Shown one piece after another: positions 1 to 59,584 of a stretch of 64,000 bases of DNA (positions within the stretch are counted from its first letter, which is position 1; the number at the start of each line of letters is the position of its first letter). The position numbers were made by a program, and so were the translations under genes. Source of the stretch: an uncultured Gammaproteobacteria bacterium (lineage in GTDB: Bacteria; Patescibacteriota; Patescibacteriia; JAHIZJ01); contig CAZQLY010000005.1 of assembly GCA_964594455.1 (NCBI GenBank), forward strand, positions 1,682-65,681, given 5' to 3'. The notes below the pieces were generated by a model that saw only the letters and a list, made by a program, of their open reading frames with translations, was not told the DNA's origin and ran no database searches.

Positions 1-1407
1 GAGAAATTCCTGCCCCAGCTGCCGACCTTTCAGAAAATCATGAACAACGGTGTCTATGGAAAACTAAAGACTACTATTCCTCCTCTCACTCCATGTGCCT
101 GGTCGTCTTTTATGACTGGCAAGAATCCGGGTCAACATGGTATCTACGATTTTGCCTTTCTGCAAGAGGACAAAAAACTGGGCTTGTTTGATTCGACTCA
201 GCGTAAAGATGAAGATATCTGGCAAATATTATCAGCTCAGGGATACAAATGCATAGTGTTTAATGTACCAATGACTTTCCCGGCCTATCCGATCAACGGC
301 CAAATGATAACAGATTTTACAACCCCCACCCTGGACAGCGACTTCACTTATCCCGATTCATTGAAGGGTGAGCTACTGCGAGAATTTCCTAACTATAGAA
401 TCTCAGAAAATTCAAAATATTCAGAGAACGCCAGCGATCAGCGGGAATTCCTGGATGATATTTTTGATTTGTTAGAGTTACGAACCAAGGTTTTTGATTG
501 GCTATTAACCAACAATGAGTGGCATGTTTCTATGGTGGTTTTTGGTGCTAATGATCATATCAACCATTGGTACAGAAAATATATGAACCAAGATGATTCA
601 GAATACAAAGACGCTCTGCTCAACGGTTATAAACGGACCGACGAAAAGATCAAGCAGATTATGGAAAAATATCCTGATGCTAATTTCATGTTCATGTCGG
701 ATCATGGAACAGGACCATACAATAAAGACGTTAACCTTAATCAGTGGCTGCTGGAAAACAAATATATCTATTTGAATAAAAGCCAGGGTGTCATCAAAAG
801 CCTCTTACAGAAACTGGGCTTATCCCCTTCTCGATTGATAAAAATAGCTCTCAATCTAAAGCTGTGGAAACTAATAAAGAGGCTAGGCATCAAAGATACT
901 CTGGTTAAACATACTAGCGTCACGTTTGAAGACGTTGATTGGGAAAAGACTAAAGCCTATTCGTTTGGATATTACGGTCCGATCTATATTGTTGATAATG
1001 AAAACCGAAAAAAACTGGTGACTGAATTAAAAGAAAAACTTCTCAAGATAAAGGCTCTTGATGGAAAGCCTTTGATATCAGATATTTGGACCAAGGATCA
1101 ACTTTACCACGGCCGACACGCATCAAGAATGCCAGACTTAATATTCGCCATGCAAAACTTTACTTATGGCTGTTCTAGTAGCTTCGCTTTTGGCGGCAAT
1201 CAGCTATTCACGGATCCTAAGACTTTTAAAAACGGCGATCACAGCATTTACGGAATCTTTGCCGCCTATGGACCGGACATCAAAAAAACTGGTGCCAAAT
1301 TAGAAGGGTTGAAAATAACTGATATCGCTCCTACGGTTTTGAAGATTTTTGATACTAAAATACCCGAAGACTTTGATGGACGCCCCCTAGACGAAATATT
1401 CAATTAG
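1..1407 (+). CDS. Alkaline-phosphatase-superfamily protein (type I phosphodiesterase/nucleotide pyrophosphatase-like); 5' end probably outside window
   Basis: The ORF is open in frame back to base 1 with no stop upstream of the listed Met. N-terminal motif TPCAWSSFMTGKNPGQHGI and overall pattern match AlkP/ENPP-like metalloenzymes. Confidence 0.5.
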   Translation, partial: EKFLPQLPTFQKIMNNGVYGKLKTTIPPLTPCAWSSFMTGKNPGQHGIYDFAFLQEDKKLGLFDSTQRKDEDIWQILSAQGYKCIVFNVPMTFPAYPINGQMITDFTTPTLDSDFTYPDSLKGELLREFPNYRISENSKYSENASDQREFLDDIFDLLELRTKVFDWLLTNNEWHVSMVVFGANDHINHWYRKYMNQDDSEYKDALLNGYKRTDEKIKQIMEKYPDANFMFMSDHGTGPYNKDVNLNQWLLENKYIYLNKSQGVIKSLLQKLGLSPSRLIKIALNLKLWKLIKRLGIKDTLVKHTSVTFEDVDWEKTKAYSFGYYGPIYIVDNENRKKLVTELKEKLLKIKALDGKPLISDIWTKDQLYHGRHASRMPDLIFAMQNFTYGCSSSFAFGGNQLFTDPKTFKNGDHSIYGIFAAYGPDIKKTGAKLEGLKITDIAPTVLKIFDTKIPEDFDGRPLDEIFN

Positions 1408-17254: not shown

Positions 17255-17370
17255 ATTACTTTTTTTTTAGTTGTCTTCAATGCTGCCGGACTAGGATTCG
17301 AACCTAGATTACCAGGGCCAGCCCGCCCCGCCAGCTTCGCTAATTATAAGTTTTATATTCTCAAGTAGAT

Positions 17371-17443
17371 TGCTCCGGGGCCTGGACTCGAACCAGGATT
17401 ACCAGGGCCAGAACCTAGCGTCCTACCATTAGACGACCCCGGA
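17371..17443 (-). tRNA. tRNA-Gln (anticodon CUG), intact, lying inside the intervening sequence of the outer copy
   Basis: Minus-strand sequence TCCGGGGTCGTCTAATGGTAGGACGCTAGGTTCTGGCCCTGGTAATCCTGGTTCGAGTCCAGGCCCCGGAGCA. 7-bp acceptor stem with U1:A72; D, anticodon (loop TTCTGGC) and T arms all pair. Confidence 0.85.
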
Positions 17444-17513
17444 ACAATTCACTCGAGATATTTTTTAACCTGCAGACGCAGCGGGCCGGGGAACCTGGCG
17501 TCCTACCATTAGA

Positions 17514-17546
17514 CCCGCCTCGACTTGCCGGTCTCGGCGAGGCGGG
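17514..17546 (-). repeat. GC-rich hairpin element (CCCGCCTCG-N15-CGAGGCGGG) inserted in the D-stem of the outer tRNA-Gln copy
   Basis: Perfect 9-bp inverted repeat. Same family as 40578-40648, 56798-56829 and degenerate copies at 32676-32700 and 34933-34959. Confidence 0.7.
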
Positions 17547-17570
17547 CGATCCGGCAGCAATGCAGGCAAC

Positions 17571-34932: not shown

Positions 34933-34959
34933 TCAACCCATGCCCCGCCTCGATTCAGA
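34933..34959. repeat. GC hairpin family member (CCCCGCCT-N12-AGGCGGG) between hsp20 and the small ORF
   Basis: 7-bp GC arms identical to the tRNA-associated hairpin arms. Conspicuously GC-rich against AT-rich surroundings. Confidence 0.4.
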
Positions 34960-34981
34960 TCAAGGCGGGAATATTGACCGA

Positions 34982-40518: not shown

Positions 40519-40569
40519 ATGATTAGGGCTTTAATATTCTCTATATCTTTGTGTTTCTAAATCCAAGCG

Positions 40570-40666
40570 TGTCCTAACCCGCCTCGCCCGACTTGCGCGA
40601 GCGAGTCGAGGCGGGCCCAGCCTCGACTTGCCGTCTTGGCGAGGCAGGCCATTAGACGATGGGGCC
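40570..40666 (-). pseudogene. 5' fragment of tRNA-Glu (positions about 1-26), duplicated 51 nt upstream of the intact gene and interrupted in the D-loop by two tandem GC hairpin elements
   Basis: GGCCCCATCGTCTAATGG-[33-nt hairpin][38-nt hairpin]-TTAGGACA, then diverges (CGCTTGG instead of CCAGGTT). Confidence 0.55.
40578..40648 (-). repeat. Two tandem GC hairpin elements (40578-40615: CCCGCCTCG-N20-CGAGGCGGG; 40616-40648: CCTGCCTCG-N15-CGAGGCTGG, a degenerate copy)
   Basis: Same arms and loop core (GACGGCAAGT) as the copies at 17514-17546 and 56798-56829. Confidence 0.65.
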
Positions 40667-40715
40667 ATGAATAACTTGACTCAGTGTATTGTAATTTGGG
40701 CTAAACGTCAATACT

Positions 40716-56683: not shown

Positions 56684-56778
56684 AGCTTTTTTATTATACC
56701 AAAATATTGCCTTTCTTTCAATTATAGGCTCTTGCCAAATAATATTTATTCTGCTAGTATAGGAAAAGTTTCAAACAC

Positions 56779-56838
56779 GCGCCGTTAGCTCAGTTGGCCC
56801 GCCTCGCCGAGACGGCAAGTCGAGGCGGGTAGAGCAGT
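56779..56838 (+). pseudogene. 5' fragment of tRNA-Lys (positions about 1-26), duplicated 254 nt upstream of the intact gene, with a 32-nt GC hairpin inserted in the D-loop after G18G19
   Basis: GCGCCGTTAGCTCAGTTGG-[hairpin]-TAGAGCAGT is identical to 57093-57119 apart from the insert. Similarity also extends about 5 nt upstream (CAACACGC). Confidence 0.55.
56798..56829 (+). repeat. GC hairpin element CCCGCCTCG-CCGAGACGGCAAGT-CGAGGCGGG
   Basis: Perfect 9-bp inverted repeat. Family member. Confidence 0.7.
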
Positions 56839-56844
56839 TATTAA

Positions 56845-57102
56845 ATGATTGCTACTTACATACTGTTTAGCCAAAAAGACAGAAAAACATACGTCGGGTA
56901 TTCTTGTAATTTAACAGATAGGTTAAGAAATCATAGACTGGGACTAGTCTCAGCAACTAGAAATAGACGACCGTTGTCGCTTATAGCTTATCGACCTGCT
57001 AGTAATATCGAAGACGCAAGAAAAATAGAAAAATATTGGAAAACAGCGTCAGGGCGCAGATTCCTTAAAAAAATACTTATAGATATCAACACGCGCCGTT
57101 AG
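56845..57102 (+). CDS. Small GIY-YIG domain nuclease (85 aa, catalytic domain only)
   Basis: TYILFSQKDRKTYVGYSCNLTDRLRNH matches GIY...YIG...R..H. A downstream Glu (IEKYWK) is present. The last four codons and the stop (AAC ACG CGC CGT TAG) are the 5' end of the tRNA-Lys gene. Confidence 0.6.
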   Translation: MIATYILFSQKDRKTYVGYSCNLTDRLRNHRLGLVSATRNRRPLSLIAYRPASNIEDARKIEKYWKTASGRRFLKKILIDINTRR

Positions 57103-57168
57103 CTCAGTTGGTAGAGCAGTGGCCTTTTAAGCCAACGGTCGGGGGTTCGAATCCCTCACGGCGCACCA
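57093..57168 (+). tRNA. tRNA-Lys (anticodon UUU), intact
   Basis: GCGCCGTTAGCTCAGTTGGTAGAGCAGTGGCCTTTTAAGCCAACGGTCGGGGGTTCGAATCCCTCACGGCGCACCA. Cloverleaf pairs and CCA is encoded. Confidence 0.9.
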
Positions 57169-57172
57169 GTAA

Positions 57173-57198
57173 AAAACGCCATTGGGGCGTGTTTTTAT
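57173..57198 (+). terminator. Rho-independent terminator after tRNA-Lys
   Basis: AAACGCC-ATTG-GGGCGTG hairpin followed by TTTTTATTT. Confidence 0.5.
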
Positions 57199-57233: not shown

Positions 57234-57731
57234 ATGGAAGAAATAACCATAAAACAGCTAGAAGAAAAAGCTCAAGAATTGCAGAACGCTGAAAAACGCT
57301 GGCATTTTCATATGCTGACTCCAGACTGTTTGTTTAACGAAAGTAATGACAAACATGCACTTGTAATAGAAGATACTACCGATGACCAGCAATATGTTGC
57401 TTATTCCAAAAACAGAGAGTTTGCGCTTGGTAAAAAGCTGCTCAAACTTCTTCATGGCGGCAAAGTTTTAACTAAATCAAAAAAACCATCCACTATAGAA
57501 AACCCGAACTTGCAGAAATTGATTGACCGAGCAAAGGATATAAATAAAAAGGGCCTACCCTGGCACCATCACGTTTTGTTCCCTGATTGTCAGTATAACG
57601 ACCGAGTAGGTCAATGGAATATAGTCATGGAGGATAAGGAGAAAGGCGAGCTGCTTGAGGCTTCATATGATTTAGAGCCAACCAACGATCAGAATATCAT
57701 CGAACAACTTTTCTACGATCAAAAAGAATAA
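57234..57731 (+). CDS. Hypothetical protein with tandem WHxH-hLxPDC repeat
   Basis: Two copies of an approximately 37-aa module (RWHFHMLTPDCLFNESNDKHALVIEDTTDDQQYVAY / PWHHHVLFPDCQYNDRVGQWNIVMEDKEKGELLEASY). Confidence 0.4.
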   Translation: MEEITIKQLEEKAQELQNAEKRWHFHMLTPDCLFNESNDKHALVIEDTTDDQQYVAYSKNREFALGKKLLKLLHGGKVLTKSKKPSTIENPNLQKLIDRAKDINKKGLPWHHHVLFPDCQYNDRVGQWNIVMEDKEKGELLEASYDLEPTNDQNIIEQLFYDQKE

Positions 57732-58253
57732 ATGAAAAAAAATCAGATTCTAAAAAAACTAACCGGAGGGGATCTGCGCTCGATCGGACGAGCTGACGAA
57801 GTTGCCCAGGATGTTTTGGATAATCCTGAGTTGTTTTCTAATGTTTTTGAAGGTATGAATAATGACGATCCTAGGATCCGGATGCGCAGCGCTGACGCTC
57901 TGCAGAAAGTGGCAGAAAAGCACCCGGAATATTTACAACCCCACAAGAAACAACTGCTTGACGAAATATCAAAGATTGATCAGCAAGAGGTGCAGTGGCA
58001 CGTAGCTCAAATGCTGAGCTATCTTGATTATCAATCTGAAGAGATACCAAAAGCGGTTGATATTCTGATGGAATATATTAATAAATCAGATAGCAATATA
58101 GTCATTGTCAATTCACTTCAGGCTTTAGCAGATCTGGTGGAAAAAGATCAATCACTTAAGCCAAAGGTGAAAACAATAATTGAAGACAAGATGAAATCCG
58201 GGGGACCGGCTATCTTCAGTCGAGGCAAGAAACTGCTGGAAAAAATGAATTAA
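57732..58253 (+). CDS. Hypothetical alpha-helical (HEAT/ARM-like) protein
   Basis: Repetitive helical pattern. Start codon abuts the stop of the preceding ORF. Confidence 0.35.
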   Translation: MKKNQILKKLTGGDLRSIGRADEVAQDVLDNPELFSNVFEGMNNDDPRIRMRSADALQKVAEKHPEYLQPHKKQLLDEISKIDQQEVQWHVAQMLSYLDYQSEEIPKAVDILMEYINKSDSNIVIVNSLQALADLVEKDQSLKPKVKTIIEDKMKSGGPAIFSRGKKLLEKMN

Positions 58254-58292
58254 AAAAGCTCCCTATTGAATTGAGAGCTATAGGCAGGCTGA

Positions 58293-58658
58293 TTATTCGG
58301 CCGGTTTTGAGATACGGATCCGGTGGAATTCACCGTGCCTGGTTCGAAGGTCATATATACCTTCATAGTAGACCATACCAACACGCTCAACCGGCATCTC
58401 AAAACCAATCCAATAAGAGGTTTTTATATTACCAAGACTAGTCAGGCCCAGAAAAACAACTCGGCAAGCACACAAATTGAACTCACAACCAGGTGCAGTA
58501 AAACACACTGTGTGCTGCCTAGAGAGCGAGCATAGAATGTCGAGCTCACCCGGCCCCCCAGTAACACCAATCTTGTCTGCATCACGTTCAACAACCACTT
58601 TCCCCGAAACTGTGTTGTACGAATGCCAGGGAAAAATGGTTTCGTTTCGTTCGGCCAT
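58293..58658 (-). CDS. Hypothetical Cys-containing small protein on a GC-rich island
   Basis: ORF in a region of clearly raised GC. No recognisable family. Confidence 0.35.
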   Translation of the reverse strand: MAERNETIFPWHSYNTVSGKVVVERDADKIGVTGGPGELDILCSLSRQHTVCFTAPGCEFNLCACRVVFLGLTSLGNIKTSYWIGFEMPVERVGMVYYEGIYDLRTRHGEFHRIRISKPAE

Positions 58659-58792
58659 ATCGGCACCTCCTGGTCAAAGAACTTTGCCAGAGCATATCGC
58701 TCAGACTACCCACTCAGGATGAGCAAGCTGTTTACTGTATATCGAATTTATATAGATGTCAATAAAAAACCCACACCTATGTAAGGCTGGGT

Positions 58793-59497
58793 TTAGAACC
58801 ATCTGCCCGTAACGTGATACGGATGGTTAGGAATGGCCGGAGCACTGATCAGACAGCCCAGGCAATCGAACACGTCTGATTTGGCTTTTACGACGATCTG
58901 ATTCTGCTCAAAACAGACTTTGACTTCGTATCTGGGCCGACCTACGATCGTCAGAAATATCTCCAAATCTTCCGGGTCGTTGAAGTCAGCTACGGCCAGA
59001 AATTCCGGCGATAGCTCGATGTGGCCACGCCCGTCTATCAGACAAACTTGGGTGACTTCCTCAACCCTGGGCTTCAGAGTAACCACGTTACTGTCAGCAA
59101 AGACGTAACCGATATCTCCCCAGCACAGGTGTTTTGGCGCTAGAACCATGAAGTTGGCCCAGCCGTTGTAGGTCGAGTCAGCGTGAAAGATAATCGACTC
59201 GCTGGTATACTCGAACCAAATCTGCCCAGAGCCGGGCTGGCATGAAGTCAAAGAAATGGTTGGCGTGTAGCCTGGATCGACTTCCTGGAGAAAAACGGGA
59301 TCGAACCGAAATTCAGCCAACCCGTTTTGAAACTCCACGTCGCCATAACGCCGAATCACTGGCGCAGTCGTGACTACGAAGTAGATCCGGTCTAAACCTG
59401 CCGAGTAACTCAGTGAATCAACAGAACTATCTTGAGCTGACGACTCGACTGGGGCGCATATCGCCATCAGGCACAGAAGTAATGATAATCGAATCAT
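58793..59497 (-). CDS. Secreted hypothetical protein on a GC-rich island
   Basis: Signal peptide (MIRLSLLLCLMAICAPVESSA). Raised GC. Several Cys. Confidence 0.4.
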   Translation of the reverse strand: MIRLSLLLCLMAICAPVESSAQDSSVDSLSYSAGLDRIYFVVTTAPVIRRYGDVEFQNGLAEFRFDPVFLQEVDPGYTPTISLTSCQPGSGQIWFEYTSESIIFHADSTYNGWANFMVLAPKHLCWGDIGYVFADSNVVTLKPRVEEVTQVCLIDGRGHIELSPEFLAVADFNDPEDLEIFLTIVGRPRYEVKVCFEQNQIVVKAKSDVFDCLGCLISAPAIPNHPYHVTGRWF

Positions 59498-59584
59498 CCT
59501 GACCCCCCCTATCGGAAACCATAGCCTATAAAAAAAGGAACCTATATCTTATTACCAGTATAGGACCTAATTGTCAAGCCATGC

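What the first reader, a model, noticed from the sequence alone, without database searches (positions are those of the whole stretch)
56774..57198. tRNA-Lys locus: a 60-nt hairpin-interrupted duplicate of the tRNA 5' end, then a minimal GIY-YIG nuclease ORF whose last codons are the tRNA itself
Positions 56779-56838 repeat tRNA-Lys positions 1-26, with the 32-nt hairpin inserted after G19. Seven nucleotides later an 85-aa ORF (56845-57102) begins, with a clear GIY-YIG motif (TYILFS...TYVGYSCNLTDRLRNH). Its C-terminal NTRR and TAG stop are encoded by the 5' end of the intact tRNA-Lys (57093-57168). In phages, GIY-YIG proteins are free-standing homing endonucleases. A catalytic-domain-only GIY-YIG wedged between a tRNA gene and a partial copy of that tRNA's target-like sequence looks like the footprint of a homing or repair event (cleavage near the tRNA D-arm, then repair that duplicates the flank). 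It could also be a selfish cassette using the tRNA promoter.
Basis: partly seen in the sequence, partly recalled or inferred. Interest (0 to 1): 0.7.

Follow-up and report, generated by a model that had tools for sequence, protein, structure and literature searches.

The report
Selfish nuclease cassette inside tRNA leader
A tiny nuclease gene sits between a tRNA promoter and its tRNA, behind a hairpin-broken stub of that tRNA; the same layout recurs at many tRNA genes in other bacteria and looks like an undescribed mobile element.

Summary
tRNA-Lys (57093-57168) is preceded by an 85-aa GIY-YIG ORF (56845-57102) whose TAG stop is tRNA U8-A9-G10. Upstream lies a stub: 5 nt of leader plus tRNA 1-28, split after G19 by a 32-nt GC hairpin.

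It is not a one-off scar. The same hairpin family interrupts 5' stubs at the other two tRNAs of the window. At tRNA-Gln, an intact tRNA is nested in the anticodon loop of a second, hairpin-broken tRNA-Gln.

The host is a Patescibacteria chromosome, not a phage. Six of nine homologues whose DNA I fetched abut a tRNA (Tyr, Gln x2, Ser, Met, Cys), each with a palindrome-interrupted copy of that tRNA. One is in a cultured Flavobacterium. The other three are bounded by co-varying inverted repeats, and one splits a gene.

Two relatives carry different arrangements at the orthologous tRNA-Lys locus.

Best reading (0.6): a mobile, selfish UPF0213/Slx1-like nuclease cassette embedded in the tRNA 5' leader and expressed from the tRNA promoter. 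The mobilisation chemistry and the role of the hairpin are unresolved.

I found no description of this in the searchable literature. The nearest is GIY-YIG insertion sequences in CPR rRNA genes.

The parts
56732..56760 (+). Promoter-like site (TTGCCA-17 nt-TAGTAT with TG) upstream of the stub; the probable native tRNA-Lys promoter.
   Evidence: The block GGCTCTTGCCA is conserved as GGCTCTTGTCA directly upstream of the intact, stub-free 5' end of tRNA-Lys in relative L030.
56774..56797 (+). Stub part L: 5 nt of 5' leader (AACAC) plus tRNA-Lys positions 1-19, 100% identical to 57088-57111.
56798..56829 (+). 32-nt GC-rich palindromic hairpin (stem CCCGCCTCG/CGAGGCGGG, inner CCG-AGA-CGG stem, CAAGT bulge) inserted after G19 of the stub.
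   Evidence: The same family occurs in tRNA stubs of L004, L007, L009 and L012.
56830..56838 (+). Stub part M': tRNA-Lys positions 20-28 (TAGAGCAGT).
56845..57102 (+). 85-aa stand-alone GIY-YIG (UPF0213/Slx1-like) nuclease ORF. Its last 10 nt, including the TAG stop, are tRNA positions 1-10.
57093..57168 (+). Intact tRNA-Lys(ttt).
57176..57198 (+). Intrinsic-terminator-like hairpin plus T run that closes the transcription unit.
40569..40670 (-). Sister locus: tRNA-Glu stub (leader TCAT + positions 1-18, two tandem hairpins at 40648-40617 and 40615-40578, then positions 19-27). It lies 50 nt upstream of intact tRNA-Glu (40518-40444). No ORF.
17282..17556 (-). Sister locus: a second tRNA-Gln(ctg) gene interrupted by hairpin 17546-17514 (between positions 10 and 11) and by an inverted-repeat-bounded 169-nt segment 17490-17322 in the anticodon loop. 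That segment carries the intact tRNA-Gln (17443-17372).
   Evidence: Removing both inserts gives a canonical 72-nt tRNA-Gln by ARAGORN.

Best explanation
The locus is one copy of a widespread, mobile, selfish cassette. It is a naked ~80-aa GIY-YIG (UPF0213/Slx1-type) nuclease gene lodged in the 5' leader of a tRNA gene.

Shown:
- The order of parts is native tRNA promoter, then a stub of the tRNA 5' end broken by a GC-rich palindrome, then the ORF, then (0-10 nt later, or overlapping) an intact tRNA, then the terminator.
- There is no room for a separate promoter between ORF and tRNA. The cell therefore cannot silence or lose the ORF transcript without losing the tRNA.
- This architecture recurs at different tRNAs in different phyla and turns over at orthologous loci.

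Inferred:
- The cassette arrived by insertion into the tRNA gene, accompanied by an in-situ duplication of 17-41 nt of target (from 1-10 nt of leader up to tRNA position 12-38). This regenerated a complete tRNA downstream and left the promoter-proximal copy as a dead stub.
- RNase P cleavage of the precursor separates the mRNA from the tRNA.

Speculative:
- The nuclease initiates the events by nicking structured (cloverleaf or cruciform) DNA.
- The GC palindromes (termini CCC...GGG) are ORF-less miniature relatives of the inverted-repeat-bounded copies of the same ORF. In the stub they may break the direct repeat that could otherwise delete the ORF, stabilise the 5' end of the mRNA, or both.
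For: Local anatomy.

Same hairpin family in stubs at all three tRNAs of the window and nowhere else in 64 kb.

Protein:
- GIY-YIG by Pfam.
- UPF0213 and SLX1 are the best solved relatives by sequence and by fold.
- Y5, Y16, G18, R26, H30 and E62 are invariant in 14 homologues.
- The family is very large: 7,229 50%-identity clusters at E<=1e-10.

Contexts:
- 6 of 9 homologues fetched by protein look-up abut a tRNA: L001 Tyr, L009 Gln, L012 Gln, L017 Ser, L027 Met (a cultured Pontimicrobium), L011 Cys.
- My rough binomial estimate for this, from the window's tRNA density, is P ~1e-9.
- Every one has a palindrome-interrupted partial copy of that tRNA. In L011 the layout is mirrored, with the partial copies on both sides. 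In L001 the stub is diverged and was read by eye.
- Stub and intact copy share non-conserved leader bases (AACAC here; ATTAGTTTAT in L012), which points to in-situ duplication.

Turnover at the orthologous locus:
- L029 has stub, tRNA-Lys, then a GIY-YIG only 36% identical to the window's.
- L030 has no GIY-YIG, but a 3' stub after a hairpin-rich insert.

Mobility outside tRNAs:
- L008 splits an AlbA_2/HATPase_c_4/HTH gene, and excising the element restores a 450-aa ORF.
- L008, L033 and L028 are bounded by 16-22-nt inverted repeats, with compensatory changes between L008 and L033.

Nested tRNA-Gln shows a replacement tRNA carried inside an inverted-repeat-bounded insert.
Against: - No nuclease activity, target or transposition intermediate has been shown.
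- An 80-aa catalytic domain has no evident DNA-binding module.
- No strictly empty versus filled pair of otherwise identical alleles was found. All population copies fetched are identical.
- The Glu and Gln loci of the window have stubs and hairpins but no ORF, so the hairpin/stub phenomenon may be independent of the nuclease.
- Long, variable duplications with a palindrome inside one copy fit no known transposition chemistry.
- Gln-associated nucleases from three genomes cluster at 62-68% identity although their stubs differ. This is awkward for a purely non-homologous insertion model.
- The apparent recombinant L025 could be an assembly chimera.
Confidence: 0.6

Rival explanations
1. Classical homing. 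The nuclease cuts cassette-free alleles of the cognate tRNA gene. The break is repaired from a donor in which both homology arms are tRNA-derived (the stub on the left, the intact tRNA on the right). The hairpin destroys the target site in the stub.
For: - GIY-YIG homing endonuclease SegB of phage T4 acts in a tRNA gene cluster (PMC2330249).
- Nucleases next to tRNA-Gln in three genomes cluster at 62-68% identity.
- L025 carries a cassette 100% identical to L017 as far as tRNA position ~45, then a different tRNA-Ser 3' half and a different neighbouring gene.
- The window's Gln locus has a foreign-looking intact tRNA inside the native one.
Against: - The intact downstream tRNA keeps any target site uninterrupted.
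- There is no DNA-binding domain.
- Stub architecture (hairpin position, stub end) differs among the related Gln cassettes.
- Stub and intact copy share up to 10 nt of non-conserved leader, which an imported arm would not.
- Left arms of 10-24 nt are short for recombination.
- L025 may be an assembly chimera.
Confidence: 0.2
2. Two unrelated things. The stubs are leftover att-type duplications from integrase-mediated islands that target tRNA genes. The hairpins are an independent MITE/REP-like repeat. The GIY-YIG is a bystander gene.
For: - Partial tRNA duplications are the normal signature of tRNA-targeting integrative elements (established knowledge).
- 3' stubs also occur (L030, L027).
- The hairpin also occurs in a CDS and in intergenic DNA of a Pirellulales MAG with no nuclease nearby.
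- The window's genes 57234-59500 are absent from the L030 locus.
Against: - No integrase lies at any of the loci examined.
- The duplicated part is the 5' end, and the 'element' between the repeats is just the ORF (about 260 nt).
- The ORF ends within 0-10 nt of the tRNA in six independent loci.
- The hairpin lies 10-33 nt upstream of the ORF start at every locus where this was measured (window, L004, L009, L012, L017, L027).
- All four hairpins of the window are in stubs.
Confidence: 0.1
3. Host function. The small GIY-YIG is a housekeeping nucleic-acid repair or processing enzyme deliberately co-expressed with tRNAs. The stub plus hairpin is a 5' UTR or processing signal.
For: - Catalytic residues are conserved across a very large family.
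- The family is related to UPF0213/YhbQ, which is chromosomal in many bacteria.
- The hairpin would stabilise the 5' end of the transcript.
Against: - Different tRNAs are involved in different genomes.
- The copies at the orthologous tRNA-Lys locus are only 36% identical, and the ORF is absent in L030.
- Stub length and hairpin position are not conserved.
- One copy disrupts a gene.
- Many homologues sit on very short contigs, as repeats do.
Confidence: 0.1

Closest known systems
GIY-YIG ORFs in non-intron insertion sequences of CPR/Patescibacteria rRNA genes (PMC11270868; first noted by Brown et al. 2015, from memory)
   Same: Same phylum. Small GIY-YIG ORFs sit in short insertions inside genes for structured RNAs. 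[quoted passage not shown]
   Different: Those are inside rRNA genes and are presumably removed at the RNA level. The paper does not mention tRNAs at all. No stub duplication, no palindrome family and no leader-embedded arrangement is described there.
Free-standing GIY-YIG homing endonucleases, e.g. phage T4 SegB in the tRNA gene cluster (PMC2330249)
   Same: A GIY-YIG nuclease gene lies next to tRNA genes, with selfish inheritance through DNA breaks and repair.
   Different: Seg proteins are about 200+ aa with a DNA-binding domain, live in phages, and leave no target duplication. The protein here is 85 aa, catalytic domain only, chromosomal, and flanked by a duplicated and interrupted target.
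UPF0213 / YhbQ / Slx1 branch of the GIY-YIG superfamily (PDB 1zg2, 1ywl, 4xlg, 7cq3)
   Same: These are the best sequence and fold matches. Size and the catalytic-domain-only architecture match UPF0213. Slx1 is a structure-specific nuclease.
   Different: No mobile behaviour or tRNA linkage was found for UPF0213 in the literature searched. Slx1 needs Slx4 and has an extra zinc-finger domain (the latter from memory).
tRNA-targeting integrative elements (att sites that duplicate part of a tRNA gene)
   Same: Insertion into a tRNA gene with regeneration of an intact tRNA, leaving a partial duplicate.
   Different: Those use a tyrosine or serine recombinase, usually duplicate the 3' part, and are kilobases long. 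Here there is no recombinase, the 5' part is duplicated, and the payload is about 260 nt.
REP/REPIN-RAYT systems, MITEs and Rickettsia palindromic elements; IS200/IS605 hairpin-dependent elements
   Same: Short GC-rich palindromes are dispersed in the genome. Some are inserted in frame in genes (L005). They are associated with a single small nuclease gene. Insertion leaves little or no target duplication.
   Different: The associated enzyme is GIY-YIG, not an HUH/Y1 transposase. The palindromes are concentrated in tRNA stubs.

Membership tests
GIY-YIG nuclease superfamily | Sequence match to the GIY-YIG catalytic domain profile above the curated threshold | tested here: met
   PF01541 at E=1.8e-11, 44.6 bits against a cutoff of 22.6, covering residues 3-71.
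GIY-YIG nuclease superfamily | Conserved catalytic residues (the two Tyr of GIY and YIG, plus Arg, His and Glu) | tested here: met
   Y5, Y16, G18, R26, H30 and E62 are invariant in 14 homologues and present in the window protein.
GIY-YIG nuclease superfamily | Three-stranded sheet flanked by helices (the GIY-YIG fold) | tested here: met
   AlphaFold model with pLDDT 91.7 and E-E-H-E-H-H topology. Best Foldseek hits are UPF0213 1zg2, Slx1 4xlg/7cq3, I-TevI catalytic domain and UvrC N-terminal domain.
UPF0213 / Slx1 (COG2827-like) subfamily | Closest relatives by sequence are UPF0213/Slx1 rather than I-TevI/Seg or UvrC | tested here: met
   Profile against PDB: 1ywl 3.2e-9, 1zg2 9.3e-8, SLX1 7.3e-5; no I-TevI or UvrC hit at E<=0.01. 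NCBIfam intron-endonuclease model gives only 17.6 bits against a cutoff of 56.
Homing endonuclease gene (free-standing) | Sequence-specific DNA-binding module in addition to the catalytic domain | tested here: not met
   The protein is 85 aa and the whole length is the catalytic domain.
Homing endonuclease gene (free-standing) | Cleaves the cassette-free allele of its own insertion site | not testable with these tools
   Needs an enzyme assay.
Homing endonuclease gene (free-standing) | Presence/absence polymorphism at a conserved site among relatives | tested here: inconclusive
   The orthologous tRNA-Lys loci differ: the window has stub-ORF-tRNA, L029 has stub-tRNA-ORF with a 36%-identical protein, and L030 has no ORF. 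These genomes are only 68-73% identical in the flanking ATPase. No clean empty/filled pair was found.
Integrase-mediated tRNA-targeting island | A recombinase gene between the direct repeats or adjacent to them | tested here: not met
   No recombinase Pfam family appears in any locus gene list. Only the ORF lies between the repeats.
Group I / group II intron in a tRNA gene (known in Patescibacteria, PMC13011429) | Match to an intron covariance model | tested here: not met
   No intron family reached E<=0.5 anywhere in the window.
Transposon with terminal inverted repeats | Terminal inverted repeats bounding the element, conserved by compensatory change | tested here: inconclusive
   Met for the non-tRNA copies: L008 16 nt, L033 22 nt, L028 22 nt, with co-varying arms between L008 and L033. 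Not met for the window cassette. Its only bracketing inverted repeat is the tRNA acceptor stem (pair I11).

The most novel reading that the evidence does not exclude
The ~80-aa Slx1-like GIY-YIG protein is itself the mobilising enzyme of a new class of structure-targeting mobile DNA. It nicks extruded stem-loops (tRNA cloverleaf DNA, palindromes). That drives clean insertion of inverted-repeat-bounded copies and long-duplication insertion at tRNA 5' ends. The GC palindromes (CCC...GGG termini) would be its MITE-like non-autonomous derivatives. Some elements carry a replacement tRNA, which makes the host dependent on them.
Probability: 0.25. Interest if true: 0.85.

Novelty: new variant of a known kind. 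Interest (0 to 1): 0.72.

Why it matters
Small 'GIY-YIG nuclease family protein' genes are among the commonest unexplained ORFs in Patescibacteria and Bacteroidota. The profile found 7,229 clusters at 50% identity.

If they are leader-embedded selfish cassettes, several things follow.
- It gives a function-level explanation for a very large orphan family.
- It shows a new way for a parasite gene to make itself hard to silence or delete, by sitting between an essential tRNA and its promoter.
- It explains partial tRNA copies and GC palindromes that confuse tRNA annotation and break metagenome assemblies in these genomes.
- It offers a minimal nuclease whose specificity, if structural, could be of practical interest.
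- It links to the unexplained GIY-YIG insertion sequences in CPR rRNA genes.

The nested tRNA-Gln suggests that such elements can replace a host tRNA with their own copy.

Tried and rejected
- Exact-sequence look-up of the 85-aa protein found nothing. The ORF was evidently not called in the source assembly, although the flanking ATPase is on record (P0121).
- A single-sequence homologue search gave one hit only. An alignment was needed.
- The hairpin scan of viral contigs found nothing.
- The protein scan of viral contigs found nothing.
- tblastn against plasmids and phages found nothing. There is therefore no support for a phage or plasmid origin.
- Rfam finds nothing for the stub, the hairpin or the region 58150-58900. 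Group I and II introns are rejected.
- NCBIfam gives only sub-threshold hits.
- I looked for inverted repeats around the window ORF like those of L008, L028 and L033. There are none.
- I looked for polymorphism among 15 population copies of two cassettes. All are identical.
- The archaeal-type split or intron-containing tRNA idea for the Gln locus is rejected. The tRNAs are bacterial in type and intact copies are present. The hairpin at 10/11 shows no bulge-helix-bulge context.
- An assembly artefact is rejected. The architecture recurs in NCBI, JGI, ENA and Logan assemblies and in an isolate genome.
- Literature searches for UPF0213/YhbQ/COG2827 and for GIY-YIG with tRNA, palindromes or Patescibacteria found no description of this arrangement.
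Full report
**1. What is at the coordinates**

ARAGORN and Rfam place tRNA-Lys(ttt) at 57093-57168. An 85-aa ORF runs from 56845 to 57102. Its last codons AAC ACG CGC CGT TAG run from the 5-nt leader into the tRNA, so the stop is tRNA U8-A9-G10.

Upstream, 56774-56797 is an exact 24-nt copy of 57088-57111 (leader AACAC plus tRNA 1-19). After a 32-nt hairpin (56798-56829), 56830-56838 repeats tRNA 20-28.

The hairpin has a perfect 9-bp stem, folds at -19.9 kcal/mol and has z = -3.2. Its pattern occurs 3 times in the window against 0 expected.

The stub reaches linear position 28, and the ORF starts 6 nt after it.

**2. One transcription unit**

The best promoter-like site on the + strand (TTGCCA-17-TAGTAT with an extended TG) is at 56732-56760, just upstream of the stub. 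A terminator-like hairpin with a T run follows the tRNA at 57176-57198. There is no space for a promoter between ORF and tRNA.

The block GGCTCTTGCCA around the -35 element recurs as GGCTCTTGTCA immediately upstream of the tRNA-Lys of relative L030, which has no 5' stub. The stub therefore occupies the native, promoter-proximal position. The ORF lies in what has become a ~320-nt 5' leader of the intact tRNA. That RNase P releases the tRNA from this precursor is inferred from general knowledge.

**3. The same thing at the other two tRNAs of the window**

A BLAST of the stub region against the window hit only two other places, both just upstream of the other two tRNAs.

- **tRNA-Glu (40518-40444, minus strand).** It is preceded by TCAT + positions 1-18, then two tandem hairpins, then positions 19-27, then a 50-nt spacer.
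- **tRNA-Gln (17443-17372, minus strand).** It lies inside a 169-nt segment bounded by the inverted repeat CCCGGCCCGC/GCGGGGCGGG. That segment sits in the anticodon loop of a second tRNA-Gln, whose D-stem is split by the same hairpin. Deleting both inserts in silico yields a canonical 72-nt tRNA-Gln(ctg).

All four copies of the hairpin family in 64 kb are in tRNA stubs and in the tRNA orientation. The GIY-YIG ORF occurs once.

**4. The protein**

- **Pfam:** GIY-YIG at E=1.8e-11.
- **Solved relatives:** a three-sequence profile matches the solved UPF0213 proteins EF2693 and BH0048, and SLX1.
- **Model:** an AlphaFold model built on 14 homologues has pLDDT 91.7. Its best structural matches are BH0048, Slx1, EF2693, the I-TevI catalytic domain and the UvrC N-terminal domain.
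- **Catalytic residues:** the catalytic Tyr, Tyr, Arg, His and Glu are invariant.
- **Extra domains:** none.
- **Family size:** the family is very large. There are 617 hits in the word-indexed search, mostly Patescibacteria, Bacteroidota and Ignavibacteria, many on 1-2-kb contigs. Among 1.84 billion representatives there are 7,229 clusters at E<=1e-10.

**5. The host**

The flanking P-type ATPase is 100% identical to a protein on a 121.5-kb NCBI contig. Its nearest relatives (68-73% identity) are annotated Patescibacteria. Neighbours include DnaB, RecR and an RNase T-like exonuclease. This is a bacterial chromosome, not a phage.

**6. Contexts of homologues**

I fetched DNA around nine homologues by protein look-up. 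Six abut a tRNA.

| Locus | tRNA | Stub L | Palindrome | Stub M' | ORF-to-tRNA arrangement |
|---|---|---|---|---|---|
| L001 | Tyr | diverged, ~6-16 | short GC hairpins | 17-23 | 6 nt before tRNA |
| L009 | Gln(ttg) | -4..18 | CCCGCCTCG-type | 19-37 | 9 nt before tRNA |
| L012 | Gln(ctg) | -10..5 | same family | 6-12 | stop codon in the duplicated leader |
| L017 | Ser | -1..10 | 30-nt unrelated | 11-16 | 5 nt before tRNA |
| L027 | Met | -1..11 | CCCGCC-type | 12-21 | stop again at tRNA U8-A9-G10 |
| L011 | Cys | mirror layout | hairpin-interrupted partial copies on both sides | - | ORF downstream of the tRNA |

L027 is Pontimicrobium aquaticum, a cultured Flavobacterium.

A metagenome scan for the hairpin itself returned L004. 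There a GIY-YIG ORF lies between two hairpins, and one of them splits a tRNA-Gln stub at 10/11 exactly as in the window.

In every stub, L and M' are contiguous in the tRNA. The palindrome is therefore a clean insertion.

The probability of 6 of 9 random positions falling within ~130 nt of a tRNA is roughly 1e-9. This is my estimate, from the window's tRNA density.

**7. Copies away from tRNAs**

The other three homologues (L008, L033, L028) have no tRNA nearby. They are bounded by 16-22-nt inverted repeats, and the right arm overlaps the last codons of the ORF.

Between L008 and L033 (proteins 65% identical) both arms have changed in a compensatory way: ACCCCGTTAGATA/TATCTAACGGGGT against CACCCTATTAAGTAA/TTACTTAATAGGGTG.

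L008 splits a gene. Removing the element restores a 450-aa AlbA_2/HATPase_c_4/HTH protein.

The termini of these repeats, of the hairpins and of the Gln insert all begin CCC... and end ...GGG.

**8. The orthologous locus in relatives**

- **L029 (ATPase 73% identical).** It has a tRNA-Lys stub (positions 2-10, two long GC hairpins, positions 10-18), then the intact tRNA-Lys, then a GIY-YIG only 36% identical to the window's, then the homologue of the window's 165-aa gene.
- **L030 (ATPase 68% identical).** It has no GIY-YIG and no 5' stub. It does have a 145-nt hairpin-rich insert followed by a 3' stub of tRNA-Lys.

The locus is therefore a hot spot with rapid turnover, not a conserved housekeeping arrangement.

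**9. Mechanism**

*Shown.* The architecture, its recurrence across tRNAs and phyla, the single transcription unit, the turnover, and the gene disruption by one copy.

*Inferred.* Stub and intact copy share 1-10 nt of leader that is not conserved between relatives. The 17-41-nt duplication was therefore most likely made in situ when the ORF arrived. The DNA between the two copies is essentially the naked ORF (3-23 nt plus the coding sequence), which in three cases borrows its stop codon from the target.

*Unresolved.* How the insertion is catalysed, and why every stub carries a palindrome. I considered three roles for the palindrome:

- It breaks the direct repeat that could otherwise delete the ORF.
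- It stabilises the 5' end of an mRNA that is otherwise a disposable tRNA leader.
- It is a MITE-like derivative mobilised by the same nuclease.

The nested Gln locus shows that related inserts can carry a whole replacement tRNA.

*Rival: classical homing.* Homing with tRNA-derived arms has some support. The tRNA-Gln nucleases cluster, and L025 carries a cassette identical to L017 fused to a different tRNA-Ser 3' half. However, it conflicts with the shared leaders, the variable stubs and the uninterrupted target in the intact copy. L025 may also be an assembly chimera.

**10. What is known**

Searches of the paper library found no description of GIY-YIG cassettes with hairpin-interrupted tRNA stubs.

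- **Closest report.** GIY-YIG ORFs in CPR rRNA genes lie in non-intron insertion sequences at stem-loop tops or bases and seem not to spread by homing (PMC11270868). That paper does not mention tRNAs.
- **tRNA introns in Patescibacteria.** The study of tRNA introns in Patescibacteria concerns group I introns (PMC13011429). None is present here.
- **SegB.** T4 SegB is a much larger GIY-YIG homing enzyme in a phage tRNA cluster (PMC2330249).

**11. Verdict**

The real finding is broader than the locus: a recurrent, apparently undescribed tRNA-leader-embedded GIY-YIG cassette with an associated palindrome family.

I rate it a new variant of a known kind (selfish nuclease cassettes and insertion sequences in structured-RNA genes). 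There is a one-in-four chance that it represents a new mobilisation mechanism.

Noticed in passing
window 17282-17556 (-): An intact tRNA-Gln(ctg) is nested, within a 169-nt inverted-repeat-bounded insert, in the anticodon loop of a second tRNA-Gln(ctg). That second gene is also split by the hairpin at position 10/11. Removing both inserts restores a canonical tRNA.
   Followed up: yes
window 40569-40670 (-): The tRNA-Glu stub carries two different hairpins in tandem (variants of the CCCGCCTCG family) and no ORF. It may be a decayed cassette.
   Followed up: partly
window 34944-34969: A weaker relative of the hairpin (CCCGCCTCGATTCAGATCAAGGCGGG, 7-bp stem) lies in intergenic DNA after a minus-strand gene, with no tRNA nearby.
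   Followed up: no
window 57234-59500: Four genes lie between tRNA-Lys and the RNase T-like gene: a 165-aa unknown, a 173-aa HEAT-repeat protein, and 121-aa and 234-aa ORFs with no Pfam match. GC rises to 46%. L030 has no such genes between tRNA-Lys and its RNase T-like gene, but homologues of two of them are present in L029. This may be a small islet next to the tRNA. Rfam finds nothing in 58150-58900.
   Followed up: partly
L005 11500-11521 and L006 967-988: The same 32-nt hairpin lies in frame inside the C-terminal region of a 564-aa protein (translated as PASPRRQVEAG). This resembles Rickettsia palindromic elements inserted in genes.
   Followed up: partly
L002 811-837 / L003 4910-4932 (Pirellulales MAG): A near-identical hairpin lies in intergenic DNA of a different phylum, itself flanked by a further inverted repeat AACACGAGC/GCTCGTGTT. 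This could be horizontal spread or a mis-binned contig.
   Followed up: no
L027 3293-3349 and 3455-3512: In Pontimicrobium aquaticum, the 3' end of tRNA-Met plus its terminator is duplicated 160 nt downstream, in addition to the 5' stub and GIY-YIG cassette.
   Followed up: no
L030 4738-4905: In a relative, tRNA-Lys is followed by a 145-nt GC-hairpin-rich insert and a 3' stub (CAAATCCCTCTGGGCGCACCA) before the terminator. There is no GIY-YIG. This mirrors the 5' stubs.
   Followed up: partly
L009 10432-10680: A second, distantly related GIY-YIG ORF (40% identity to the first) lies just downstream of the same tRNA-Gln.
   Followed up: no
L025 302-391 vs L017 3255-3345: An identical cassette and tRNA-Ser 5' half are joined to a different tRNA-Ser 3' half and a different neighbouring gene, giving two mismatched acceptor pairs. 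It is either a real recombinant or an assembly chimera.
   Followed up: partly
window 57100-57102 and L027 3241-3243: In two unrelated cassettes the ORF uses the conserved tRNA bases U8-A9-G10 as its TAG stop codon. RNase P cleavage would therefore leave the mRNA without a stop codon.
   Followed up: no
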